Shown here one piece after another: positions 22,190 through 27,200 of a DNA stretch of 64,000 bases. Both the position numbers and the translations under genes were made by a program. The DNA lies in assembly GCA_028534125.1 (NCBI GenBank), contig CM052842.1, positions 806,001 to 870,000 of the forward strand, written 5' to 3'. The stretch comes from Lama glama. Taxonomy: Eukaryota. Under the pieces are notes generated by a model that did no database searches, was not told where the DNA came from, and saw nothing but the letters and a program-made list of their open reading frames with translations. The first letter of the stretch is position 1. Each line of letters begins with the position of its first letter.

Positions 22190-23260
22190 GGATACATTGA
22201 GTCCACCAGACAAATGGAGTGCCGCCTCTCCCGGCGTCCTGCCCTCAGGGAGCCCACATCCCGGTGGGAGGGGCGGCGGGCTGGGGTCGGGAGGCCAGCC
22301 CTGGGGAGAGGCAGCAGGAGGCCTTGGCCCGGGCACCATTGAGGTGCTGGCATCCGGGAGCTCAGGCCTTGAGCGGACTTCGGTTCCCACCATGCCTTGC
22401 GCCAGGGCGGGGGGGGGGGGCGGGAGCCGTGTTTCCCGACAGGCCATGCGCGGGACTGCTACGGGTCCTCGGAGGAACCGGCGCCGCGGGGCCTTGTGGG
22501 GGTTGCAGTTCCCGGCGGCGAGGGCGGGCCTCGGCTTCCCGGCGGGCTGCGCGGCGGCCGGCGGTTGTCGGCGGGGCAGTCCGGCGGGCAGCGGCGGCGG
22601 TTCCGGCTGCGGCACAGCGGCGGACGAGTGGACGGGCCGGGTCAAGTGGGCCGGGCGGGATGCGGAGCCGCCGCCGCCTGCTGAGAGTCTGAGCATCGGC
22701 CTGGCCGCGCCCCCCGCCCAAGCCGCCGCGGTCCGAGCGTTCCGAGCGTTCCGAGCGCGGGCCGGGCCCAGCGCCGCCGCCACCCCGGCTGCCCCCCGCT
22801 CCTCCCCCGCCCCGGCCGGCCCAGCGCTCATGCGGGCCGAGCCCCGCCCCCCGCCCGCCGCCGGAGCCCGCGCCCGCCCGCACACGTCCGCACCATGCTC
22901 AAGTGCATCCCGTTGTGGCGCTGCAACCGGCACGTGGAGTCGGTGGACAAGCGGCACTGCTCGCTGCAGGCCGTGCCCGAGGAGATCTATCGCTACAGCC
23001 GCAGCCTGGAGGAGCTACTCCTCGACGCCAACCAGCTGCGCGAGCTGCCCAAGGTGAGCGGCCTTCGGACCTGTCCCCCGTCCAGCCCTCGCCCGCGGTC
23101 GGCAGGGTTGGCCCCGCCGCGACCACTCGCTTGTCCGAACCCTCAGCAGGCGCTGGCCCGGGCGGGACACCGCAGCCTCCAGCCGGCCCTGCTGGTTCTT
23201 ACTGGCTAGAGCCCCACCCCTGCAGGCCCCGCCCTCCTCACCCATCGCTGGCGCTGGCAC
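22190..23260 (+). promoter_or_regulatory. CpG island / promoter and 5'UTR of SCRIB
   Basis: Very CpG-dense. Contains (tccgagcgt)x~3 at 22732-22757 and upstream ATGs at 22660 and 22830. Confidence 0.85.
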
Positions 23261-24226
23261 CAGGTGGCTAGGGTCATCAGGTGCCCGCCTTGGGGCGGGG
23301 ATGGTCACAGCCTAGAGGAGTTGCAGATTGAAAACCGTAGGGGCAGGCAGATGGTATTGGGGTGGAAGGGGAACCTGGCGTGGCTGGTGGATGCGAACTT
23401 GCTGGATCGCTCTAGAGGTGGGGAACCCAGCCTTCTGTCTGGTCTGTCTTCCTCCTCCTCCTGGTGCTGGGTTGGGAGCAGGGGAAGCCTTCTTAAGGTT
23501 CTTGTCTGTGACAAGTTTGTGTCCCGTTCACCTCTAGTGTCTTGTTTCTTCCCGAGCAGCTTGTTTTTTTTCTTCTAAAGACACTTGGGAGAGGAGGTTA
23601 AAGGAAGCAGATCACAAAAGGATTTCCTTCTTGGAGATGGGGTGCTAAGTGGCCCAGTGCCTGGGGGCTGCATACCACAAAGGGCGTGGCTCCACTCTGG
23701 GCTTGGACCAGGGCTGCTCATGGTCATTTCCAGTTCCCACAGATTGACTGTAGCCCCTGCACACCCTCAGCACCACGAGTACCTGTGGTTCTCTGTTTTC
23801 ATTGTACATTTTTTTTGGTACTTGCCAAGTTCTTGTCACAGGCTCAGGCTGGGCCGGTTTCTCGGGTGCAGTAGCAAAAACCAGCACAGGTCCTGGAGGG
23901 CTCACTTGCTGGGTGGGTGGAAAGCAAGAAACAGGGTCTCGTGGGGTCAGAAAAAAGAGATGATTTCTCCGCTAAGGCCTGAATACGTAAGGTCAGTTAC
24001 ACGGCAGCATTGTGGCAGGGGTCACGTCTGAGGTAACGTAAACGGACCAGGTGACAGAAGTCAGGGAGTCGGAAACCAAAGGGTGTGCCCGCAAGTTTTT
24101 GTTTCTTTGCTTTTCTTACTGCAGACCGGGGTGGTGGGACAGAACCAGGGTTCCTGGTTGCCCTGCTGCCTGCTCTTCACCCCTGACCTCGCCCCCCCCC
24201 CCAACAGCCCTTCTTTCGGTTGCTAA
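22830..24226 (+). CDS. Overlapping upstream ORF on the SCRIB mRNA (oSCRIB-like, 80 aa if spliced)
   Basis: ATG 22830, 65 nt upstream of and out of frame with the SCRIB ATG. Reads [25 protein letters not shown]..., continues over 22830-23053 plus 24208-24226 and ends at TAA in exon 2. Confidence 0.5.
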
Positions 24227-27200
24227 ACCTGAGGAAGCTGGGTCTGAGTGACAACGAGATCCAGCGCCTGCCCCCAGAGGTGGCCAACTTCATGCAGCTG
24301 GTGGAGCTGGATGTGTCCCGGAACGGTGTGGAGCCTGGGGCGGGTCTGGGGGCGAGTCCGAGGGCAGCAGGAAGGGCTTTAGCTCCTGGAGGCTGTGGGT
24401 TCTCTCCATGGTGACCCCTCTTCCGTCGCAGACATCCCTGAGATCCCTGAGAGCATTAAGTTCTGCAAAGCCCTGGAGATTGCAGACTTCAGTGGGAACC
24501 CCTTGTCCAGGTAGGTGTGGCCACAGCAGGGGTGGAGGTGGGATGAGGGGTCCTCAGCCCTGGCCTGGGCATCTGAGGTCCCCCCTTCCTCTGGCGTAGG
24601 CTCCCTGAAGGCTTCACTCAGCTCCGAAGCCTGGCTCATCTGGCCCTGAACGATGTATCCCTGCAGGCGCTTCCTGGAGACGTGGGCAAGTAAGTGCCCC
24701 CTTGGGTGGGGAGCAGAGCACCACCTGCACCTCTACCCTCACGCCCCGCCCTGACCTCTTTCAGCCTTGCCAACCTGGTGACCCTGGAGCTCCGGGAGAA
24801 CTTGCTCAAGTCCTTGCCTGCGTGAGTGAGCTCAGCCCCTCTCACAGCCAGCTTGGGCTGTGGCCCCAAGGACCATGCTGTGCATCCATGACAGAACCGG
24901 CTCTGTTCCTTCTGCAGGTCCCTGTCTTTCCTGGTCAAGCTGGAACAGCTGGATCTGGGAGGCAACGATCTGGAAGTGCTGGTGTGGAGAGGGTGGGGCC
25001 ATCGTGGTTGGGGAAGGGCCAGGCAGGGCAGGTGAGCCTTGGCCGTCACTTTGTCCTTATCTGTTCTTGCAGCCTGACACTCTGGGGGCCCTGCCCAACC
25101 TGCGTGAGCTGTGGCTGGACCGGAACCAGCTGTCGGCACTGCCTCCGGTGAGTGAGGGTGTGGCTCCCCCCGCCTCACACCTATTGGTTCCCTGACCCTC
25201 TGCGCCCACCCTCAGGAGCTCGGGAACCTGCGGCGCCTGGTGTGCCTGGATGTGTCGGAGAACCGGCTGGAGGCACTGCCTGCGGAGCTCGGCGGGCTGG
25301 TGCTGCTTACTGACCTGCTGCTTTCACAGAACTTGCTGCAGCGGCTTCCTGACGGCATCGGTTAGTGCTGGTCTGGGTGCTGGGAGGGGAGTGGCTGGTG
25401 GTAAAACTGGGCCTGGAAGAGGTTCCTGGGGCAGGACCCTTATTCTGCCAGGCTGTCGGGGAAATCCCTGAGGATGGGAAAGCCAATCTGAGGCCGGGGT
25501 GGGGTGACCAGTGCTGTGTCTGAGGAGCCGAGGCAGCTTGTGGAGGTGATTGGGGATGGTGAGCTCGCGAGGGCACGAAGGTGGGGCCCAGAAGGGCCCG
25601 GCGTCTGGGGATTGACAACGATGTCAGCAGCTAGGGCATGTGGTCAGGTTTGCAACAGGATGGCAGGGAAGGGTGAGCATGGGTCTGTGCATCTCGGGGG
25701 CTGGAGGCAGGTGAGGGGCAGGCTGTTTCCACTGCCTGGGTGGCGGGGCTTCACGCCATGAGTCGTGTTGCCATATCTTCCCAACACCAGGTCAGCTGAA
25801 GCAGCTGTCCATCCTGAAGGTGGACCAGAACCGTCTGTGCGAGGTGACCGAGGCCATCGGGGACTGTGAGAACCTGTCTGAGCTGATCCTCACGGAGAAC
25901 CTGCTGACGGTGGGCTCGGTTTCACAGTTAGCGCAGGAGATGAGAGGATGGGGGGCACCCACAGCACCTAGAGCAAGGGTGGGGATGCTGCTGTTCGGTG
26001 GGAGCTAGGTATCTGCGGGGATGCATCCTCCTTCTTACGCTCCTGGCAGGCTGCGGCCGCTCTCTGACCCTCCCTGCTCTCGGCCAGGCTCTGCCCCACT
26101 CCTTGGGGAAGCTGACCAAGCTGACCAACCTCAACGTGGACCGGAACCGCCTGGAGGTGCTGCCCCCTGAGATTGGAGGCTGTGTGGCACTCAGTGTCCT
26201 CTCCCTGAGGGACAACCGGCTGGCTGTCCTGCCGCCCGAGCTCGCCCGCACGGCCGAGCTGCACGTGCTGGACGTGGCCGGGAACCGGTGAGCGCGCGCC
26301 CGCCCTGCCGCGGTCTGCGGAGCTGACGGCGCCTGTGCGGCCCCTCGGCTGACCGCGCCGCTGGCCTGCAGGCTGCAGAGTCTGCCGTTCGCGCTCACGC
26401 ACCTTAACCTGAAGGCCCTGTGGCTGGCTGAGAACCAGGCGCAGCCCATGCTCCGCTTCCAGACTGAGGATGATGCCCAGACGGGCGAGAAGGTGCTCAC
26501 CTGCTATCTGCTGCCCCAGCAGCCCCCACCCAGCCTTGGTAGGTCCAGGTGGGGGCCACCCAGGGTGGGCACAGCCTCGGGCGACGCTGGGGCTCCCTCT
26601 GACACGTGCCTCCGCAGAGGACCCGGGGCAGCGGAGCAGCCCTTCTGAGAGCTGGAGTGACGCCCCGCTCAGCCGCGTCAGCGTCATCCAGTTCCTGGAG
26701 GCCCCTGCAGGCGACGAGGATGCCGAGGAAGCCGCCACAGAGAAACGGGTATGGGTGGGTGCGGTGCCTGGACTGGCTGCCTTCCCACCCCAGCGGACCC
26801 TTGCCCTGCCCCACCCCTCACCCCTGTGCCCGCTGCAGGGGCTGCAGCGTCGGGCTACGCCTCACCCCAGCGAACTCAAGGTGATGAAGAGGGGTGTGGA
26901 GCGTCGGAACGAAGCCGCCTCCTGCAGTCCTGACCCCGGGCCGCCCTCGCCCTCACCCCCGCCCTCAGAGGAGGTGCCTTTGGGGACCCAAGGGCCATCA
27001 GAGGGACTCCCGCCTTGCAGGCTTTCCCCACTCCGGATCCCTGGGCTGGGGGCAGGGTTCAGATGCCCAATGTGGGCATAGGGGTTGGGGGGCTCAGGGC
27101 CGACTGCCCCATGTCCTCCCGCAGAGCAGGCCACCTCTGAGGGGTGCTGGGCAGACACAGGGGTCCTGTGATGTGGACGTGTGGGGCAGCTGTGCCCTCA

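What the first reader, a model, noticed from the sequence alone, without database searches (positions are those of the whole stretch)
22830..24251. oSCRIB-like overlapping uORF is kept but in a different reading frame from human
Seen: ATG 22830 starts MRAEPRPP..., lies 65 nt upstream of the SCRIB ATG and gives an 80-aa spliced ORF ending at TAA 24224-24226. Recalled: human oSCRIB starts MRTEPRPP, continues ...[15 protein letters not shown] in the other alternative frame, and represses SCRIB translation in cis. Here that human-type frame is not joined to this ATG and stops at TGA 24249-24251. Inference: selection preserves an out-of-frame overlapping start that acts as a translational brake, not the peptide.
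Basis: partly seen in the sequence, partly recalled or inferred. Interest (0 to 1): 0.75.

Follow-up and report, generated by a model that had tools for sequence, protein, structure and literature searches.

The report
Camelid EMBOW microprotein with swapped tail
In camels and their South American relatives, the small reading frame that overlaps the start of the cell-polarity gene Scribble runs on in a different frame from the human one, so the short front end that binds the protein WDR5 in humans is kept while the rest of the microprotein is replaced, which likely means only the start site and the first few residues matter.

Summary
ATG 22830 lies 65 nt before the SCRIB ATG (22895) and opens an 80-aa spliced ORF in the +1 frame. 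Human oSCRIB/EMBOW lies 76 nt upstream in the -1 frame. The window is a South American-type camelid. An assembly slip is unlikely: a dromedary RefSeq model matches the leader for 36 codons. The switch is best explained by a 10-nt insertion just before the SCRIB ATG; four other mammalian lineages have the human frame. The insertion falls after residue 18, so the N-terminus (MRAEPRP) is untouched. In human, the first six residues bind WDR5, the 35-aa mouse form also binds, and deleting the start in HEK293T cells left SCRIB levels unchanged. So 'a brake, not the peptide' is not supported; 'start plus short N-terminal motif, tail interchangeable' fits better. 'Never in frame' is not established: in-frame fusions appear in an older guinea pig model (dropped in the newer version), one rodent contig and human dbSNP. 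A second conserved uORF (22660) was missed. Reads, start site and translation were not tested. Verdict: new variant of a known element, modest interest. The scan's earlier findings hold nothing on SCRIB.

The parts
22830..23053 (+). oSCRIB/EMBOW orthologue, exon 1 part (uATG in weak context: C at -3, C at +4), +1 frame relative to SCRIB
   Evidence: homology to human EMBOW N-terminus
24208..24226 (+). end of the 80-aa ORF in exon 2, stop TAA 24224-24226
22830..22853 (+). first 8 codons, the predicted WDR5 WIN-site motif (Met-Arg-Ala; 7 of 8 residues as in human); the same bases hold a GC-box-like run (motif recalled)
   Evidence: function from PMC10629662 passages
22878..22893 (+). CCGCAC repeated at 22878 and 22888; inferred site of the 10-nt camelid insertion that moves the frame after residue 18
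   Evidence: window matches the 55-nt leader of P0004 at 17 of 18 codons and then has 10 extra bases
22895..23053 (+). SCRIB start (A at -3) and first coding exon
   Evidence: 53 of 53 identical to Vicugna pacos SCRIB
24208..24325 (+). SCRIB exon 2; holds both alternative-frame stops (24224 and 24249)
22894..24251 (+). orphaned human-type (-1) frame, 67 codons after splicing, no longer joined to the uATG
   Evidence: 47 of 53 residues identical to human EMBOW over exon 1
   Evidence: human uSCRIB in PMC8448870; its signature seen in the leaders of P0005, P0007, P0008; the old dromedary model starts at this ATG
22300..23200 (.). CpG island over the SCRIB 5' end (GC 0.69-0.85, CpG observed/expected 0.67-1.1 in 200-nt windows starting 22300-23000)

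Best explanation
ATG 22830 is the camelid orthologue of the human oSCRIB/EMBOW start, and a likely 10-nt insertion just before the SCRIB ATG moved its tail from the -1 to the +1 frame while leaving the first 18 codons alone, so it is predicted to still make a WDR5-binding N-terminus and still divert some ribosomes from SCRIB. Steps: (1) shown: position, frame, stop, weak start context; (2) shown at protein-record level: the same 65-nt spacing in dromedary; (3) inferred: -1 is ancestral and the 10-nt gain is camelid-specific; (4) inferred from human work: scanning ribosomes sometimes start at the weak uATG, pass the SCRIB ATG out of frame and cannot make SCRIB, while most leak through; (5) inferred: the Met-Arg-Ala N-terminus enters the WDR5 WIN site as the human and mouse forms do, and the tail is a replaceable passenger. 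The switch was probably tolerated because it kept the overlap, kept the motif, and changed the length little (85 to 80 aa).
For: (anatomy). (dromedary leader identical for 36 codons). (window carries the Vicugna residues at all 3 positions that differ from Camelus in the first 700 aa, so the two sources are different genera). (distances 76, 76, 76, 55, all mod 1, in human-type P0005, rodent-type P0008, unnamed mammals P0007 and P0004; P0005 is compatible with human EMBOW for 45 of 45 codons). (17 of 18 codons shared with P0004, then 10 extra bases). (N-termini MRTEPRP human, MRAAPRP guinea pig old model, MRAEPRP rodent-type contig; window MRAEPRP). Literature: WDR5 binding needs the first 10 residues and Arg2, middle and C-terminal deletions still bind, mouse form binds; mouse form is 35 aa; start mutation raises SCRIB reporter output in vitro and the human uATG also lacks a -3 purine.
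Against: No translation, transcript start or binding data for camelids. The dromedary uATG is not proven: the His codon in frame 0 allows ATG or ACG; likewise the uATG in P0004, P0007 and P0008 is assumed from flanking residues. The structure paper names an 'MRT motif' (title seen in reference lists; paper not held), so Thr3 to Ala may weaken binding. The EMBOW authors warn that untagged mouse EMBOW was undetectable and that conservation should be read with caution. The brake was not seen in knockout cells. I could not separate peptide-level from DNA-level conservation of the first codons. The old dromedary model differs from the window by three frame changes further upstream (read by eye) and its newer version starts at the normal Met, so this GC-rich leader is error-prone in assemblies.
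Confidence: 0.55

Rival explanations
1. Pure translational brake: selection keeps an out-of-frame start that overlaps the SCRIB ATG, and no part of the peptide matters.
For: In vitro reporter gain after start mutation. Weak context conserved. Tail varies from 35 to 120 aa and has switched frame here. 33 of 36 named mammalian SCRIB models fetched start at the normal Met. Genome-wide, non-3n indels are depleted behind overlapping uAUGs, and those that only change uORF length may be tolerated (PMC3146882).
Against: All indels I could place lie after codon 7 or 8, and the first residues stay alike in human, rodent, guinea pig and camelid. Trans function with rescue by wild type but less or not by R2A. 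SCRIB unchanged in the knockout.
Confidence: 0.2
2. DNA-level conservation: the ATG and next 20 bases are kept as a promoter or leader element in a CpG island (a GC-box-like run, recalled motif), and the ORF drifts nearly neutrally; the WDR5 role is a human or primate co-option.
For: The one-base-shifted reading of codons 2-7 is identical in the window, P0004, P0007 and P0008, so third positions are kept too. Weak-context overlapping uAUGs are not more conserved than expected genome-wide (PMC3486843 abstract). In-frame and other-frame states both occur.
Against: Synonymous divergence next door is also low (6 differences in 53 codons between window and human), so the kept third positions are not unusual. 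Mouse EMBOW binds WDR5 in an Arg2-dependent way. Four lineages keep mod 1 despite different internal indels.
Confidence: 0.17
3. Assembly error: a slip in the C runs or a spurious 10-nt duplication makes the frame look changed.
For: GC-rich leader with runs of 4 and 6 C. Older dromedary and guinea pig models had leader fusions that newer versions lack. Reads not examined.
Against: A different genus gives the same 36 codons, including the 10 extra bases. The extra bases are a structured duplication, not a homopolymer slip.
Confidence: 0.05
4. The transcript starts elsewhere, so 22830 is either outside the mRNA or internal to a longer ORF begun at ATG 22392 or 22446, which are in the same open frame.
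For: The frame is open from 22392 and both ATGs have a purine at -3. No transcript data here.
Against: The human transcript holds both uORFs. The old dromedary model begins at the uSCRIB ATG, upstream of 22830. By eye the residue matching Met 22446 is Leu in the human-type leader P0005/P0169.
Confidence: 0.03

Closest known systems
Human oSCRIB / EMBOW (UniRef OSCRI_HUMAN, P0001; PMC8448870; PMC10629662)
   Same: Same gene, same uATG position class, weak context, overlap of the SCRIB ATG, 7 of first 8 residues, upstream uSCRIB.
   Different: Spacing 65 vs 76 nt; +1 vs -1 frame; 80 vs 120 aa; residue 3 Ala vs Thr; tail after residue 18 unrelated; translation untested.
Truncated or fused oSCRIB homologues (mouse 35 aa; guinea pig in-frame fusion; bioRxiv 10.1101/2025.07.27.667088)
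   Same: Frameshifts between the oORF start and the main start change the product; variable C-terminus.
   Different: The passages I read describe truncation, extension and fusion to the main frame, not a lineage-wide switch to the other out-of-frame register; the text has no mention of Camelus, Vicugna or alpaca. Its figures and supplements were not seen.
CDS-overlapping uORFs as a class (PMC3146882; PMC3486843)
   Same: Out-of-frame overlapping uAUG with suboptimal context; a non-3n indel that changes length but not type is expected to be tolerated.
   Different: Here the uORF has a reported trans-acting motif, so the case tests motif against tail.
Two-uORF reinitiation switches such as ATF4 (recalled, not from a call)
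   Same: Short first uORF (22660-22692) followed by an out-of-frame uORF that overlaps the main start.
   Different: First uORF is 10 codons and Arg-rich, second start is weak; no evidence of stress control.

Membership tests
oSCRIB/EMBOW orthologues | AUG-started ORF in the SCRIB leader that overlaps the SCRIB start out of frame | tested here: met
oSCRIB/EMBOW orthologues | Same locus (PUF60-like gene upstream, SCRIB, FAM83H-like gene downstream; order recalled) | tested here: met
   the FAM83H label is recalled from the sequence
oSCRIB/EMBOW orthologues | N-terminal Met-Arg with the first residues like human | tested here: met
   7 of 8 identical, Thr3 to Ala
oSCRIB/EMBOW orthologues | Tail read in the -1 frame (holds the two peptides detected by mass spectrometry in human) | tested here: not met
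   that frame is present but not joined to the uATG
oSCRIB/EMBOW orthologues | Translated in cells | not testable with these tools
   no ribosome profiling or proteomics available
oSCRIB/EMBOW orthologues | Binds the WDR5 WIN site | not tested
   no WDR5 sequence was fetched; inferred
Repressive CDS-overlapping uORF | uATG lies inside the mature mRNA | tested here: inconclusive
Repressive CDS-overlapping uORF | Lowers main-ORF output | not testable with these tools
   human: yes in vitro, no change in knockout cells
Repressive CDS-overlapping uORF | Never in frame with the main ORF across species | tested here: inconclusive
   2 of 7 scored lineages in frame, both doubtful; 33 of 36 named models start at the normal Met
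ATF4-like two-uORF switch | Short uORF1 followed by overlapping out-of-frame uORF2 | tested here: met
ATF4-like two-uORF switch | Main ORF induced when eIF2-alpha is phosphorylated | not testable with these tools
   needs reporter assays

The most novel reading that the evidence does not exclude
EMBOW is a frame-agnostic microprotein: evolution keeps only a start codon and a motif of about seven residues, and any overlapping frame will serve as the tail. Camelids, with 62 of 80 residues replaced, would be a natural proof, and conservation screens that need an intact ORF frame would systematically miss such elements. The conserved short uORF upstream could add ATF4-like control over how much EMBOW versus SCRIB is made.
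Probability: 0.35. Interest if true: 0.6.

Novelty: new variant of a known kind. Interest (0 to 1): 0.36.

Why it matters
EMBOW is a named human microprotein with two competing roles (cis brake on SCRIB, trans binder of WDR5), and its discoverers flag its conservation as uncertain. A lineage that swapped the whole tail but kept the front gives a ready natural test of which part is under selection. It does not reveal a new mechanism: frame changes in overlapping uORFs and variable oSCRIB tails are already described.

Tried and rejected
Own-genome search: none held. Homologue search with the +1 frame: 2 candidates, none significant; with the -1 frame only human EMBOW among 26 candidates. PDB sequence search with the 22-aa leader: 0 hits; chains under 20 residues are not in that set. 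DNA pattern scans for other mammals' SCRIB starts: 1 match in metagenomes, an unrelated sequence that agrees only over the pattern; 0 in viral and 0 in prokaryote contigs. Profile search of 1.84 billion representatives: among the best 150 of 547, no new mammalian lineage with a scorable leader; P0169 is a human-like leader with internal shifts that I did not score. Second cluster look-up: no leader reaching the uATG; two rodent-type records start 13 residues upstream, possibly at a non-ATG codon, not scored. Sequencing-run index: 14 DNA runs from 4 coded organisms hold 0.92-0.97 of 209 words, too coarse to test a small indel; one may be the source. No hairpin around the two starts (z -0.15). 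Length of the +1 frame is not unusual. Peptide versus DNA constraint on codons 2-7: inconclusive. In one search the exon 2/3 boundary was set one base off; it lies after both stops and was corrected. No structure or complex was predicted. Earlier scan findings by words and by sequence: nothing on SCRIB. The idea that an in-frame extension would disturb palmitoylation of SCRIB's N-terminal cysteines is recalled; I saw only a search listing.
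Full report
Observation. The uATG has a weak context (C at -3), the SCRIB ATG a better one (A at -3). The human record OSCRI_HUMAN aligns with the window's -1 frame at 49 of 55 residues and with the uATG frame only at the N-terminus. The human ORF is 363 bp with 287 overlapping, so it starts 76 nt upstream. The frames therefore differ as claimed.

What the window is. Exons match camelid SCRIB; at the three positions where Vicugna and Camelus differ in the first 700 residues, the window has the Vicugna residue. 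A PUF60-like gene ends near 21729 and a FAM83H-like exon (label recalled) begins near 62464.

Is the shift real? An older dromedary RefSeq model (XP_031295675.1, P0003) carries an N-terminal extension that is the leader read in the SCRIB frame. It equals the window's reading for 36 codons, 22787-22894, covering the whole interval between the two ATGs. Two genera agreeing makes a slip unlikely; a search listing puts camelid divergence at more than 11 million years. Limits: that model has three frame changes further upstream relative to the window (by eye), its newer version starts at the normal Met, and a His codon leaves ATG versus ACG open for dromedary. Reads were not examined.

How it arose. 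Protein records that include the leader in the SCRIB frame reveal the spacing. Human-type P0005 (compatible with EMBOW for 45 of 45 codons), rodent-type P0008 (label recalled from a Val in exon 1) and unnamed mammal P0007 give 76 nt; unnamed P0004 gives 55 nt. All are mod 1, assuming the ATG is present in the unnamed ones. The window matches P0004 at 17 of 18 codons and then has 10 extra bases, with CCGCAC repeated at 22878 and 22888. So -1 is likely ancestral and camelids gained 10 nt just before the SCRIB ATG. The first 18 residues are unchanged, the other 62 are new, and the length moves only from 85 to 80 aa.

Is in-frame forbidden? Of 7 lineages scored, 4 are mod 1, camelids mod 2, and 2 are mod 0: an older guinea pig model (XP_013001185.1, 25 extra residues, absent in version .2) and one rodent-type Logan protein from a single contig (P0166). 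The preprint cites the guinea pig fusion as real and reports human dbSNP deletions that fuse oORFs to the main frame; the loss of the extension in the newer record suggests, but does not prove, an old assembly error. Of 36 named mammalian SCRIB models that I picked from the best 120 of 4805 hits and from one cluster look-up, 33 start at the normal Met; this set is not a fair sample of mammals. In-frame looks rare, but one camelid event landing on 2 rather than 0 is no test.

Brake or peptide? The brake has in vitro support: mutating the AUG raised SCRIB-GFP output. But a 173-nt deletion removing the start left SCRIB protein unchanged in HEK293T cells. The peptide has a shown function: it binds the WDR5 WIN site through its first 10 residues and Arg2, middle and C-terminal deletions still bind, and the mouse form binds; a review says the crystal contact is almost only the first six residues. 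The camelid shift lies downstream of all this. The N-termini seen are MRTEPRP, MRAEPRP (window and P0166) and MRAAPRP. The finding thus shows that the tail is dispensable in camelids, not that the peptide is. I could not exclude DNA-level conservation of these codons, because third positions are kept too and nearby synonymous divergence is low (6 of 53).

Extra part. A 10-aa uORF at 22660-22692 corresponds to human uSCRIB; its signature is visible in P0005, P0007 and P0008. Short uORF plus overlapping uORF recalls ATF4; this is a lead only.

Novelty. The element is known and named. [quoted passage not shown] I found no report of the camelid switch: 5 papers hold 'oSCRIB', the preprint text lacks Camelus, Vicugna and alpaca, the one paper with SCRIB, camelid and uORF is a general review by its listing, and none of the 10 listed of 856 holds EMBOW or oSCRIB. 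The species named in the two published alignments are primates, pig, cattle, rat and mouse. The alignments themselves are images that I could not see, and the preprint's supplements were not seen; they may bear on which species shift frame.

What I read. PMC8448870: parts 1-4 of 7 and a supplement search (two PDFs unreadable). bioRxiv 2025.07.27.667088: passages and part 3 of 6. PMC10629662: passages and a supplement legend. PMC13276856, PMC12530494, PMC13143143, bioRxiv 2025.07.07.663426: passages. PMC3146882: abstract and one discussion section. PMC3486843: abstract. FEBS J 2026 structure paper: title only (not held).

Verdict. Real, correctly located, a camelid variant of a known element. 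Interest 0.36.

Noticed in passing
window 22660-22692: Conserved short uORF (uSCRIB orthologue); like the main uORF it begins Met-Arg, then Ser, which also fits the Arg-[Ala/Ser/Thr] WIN pattern quoted. Speculative.
   Followed up: partly
window 22392 and 22446: Two ATGs in good context lie in the same open frame as 22830; if the transcript reached them the ORF would be 226 or 208 aa. Probably promoter, untested.
   Followed up: partly
P0006 versus P0156 (guinea pig SCRIB isoform X6, versions .1 and .2): The 25-residue in-frame fusion cited in a 2025 preprint is absent from the newer RefSeq version; the published example may rest on an older assembly.
   Followed up: partly
P0003 versus P0124 (dromedary SCRIB): The older model fused uSCRIB to SCRIB through a 78-residue extension; newer camelid models start at the normal Met.
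   Followed up: partly
P0166 (Logan, one contig): Rodent-type protein with the uATG in frame with SCRIB, differing from P0008 by a shift after codon 7; real variant or sequence error unknown.
   Followed up: partly
window 17535-17722, 48823-49322, 57144-57370: Three runs of N (915 bases); none near the finding.
   Followed up: no
window 19922-21729 and 62464-63999: PUF60-like exons end about 0.6 kb before the SCRIB CpG island; a long FAM83H-like exon ends the window (names recalled).
   Followed up: no
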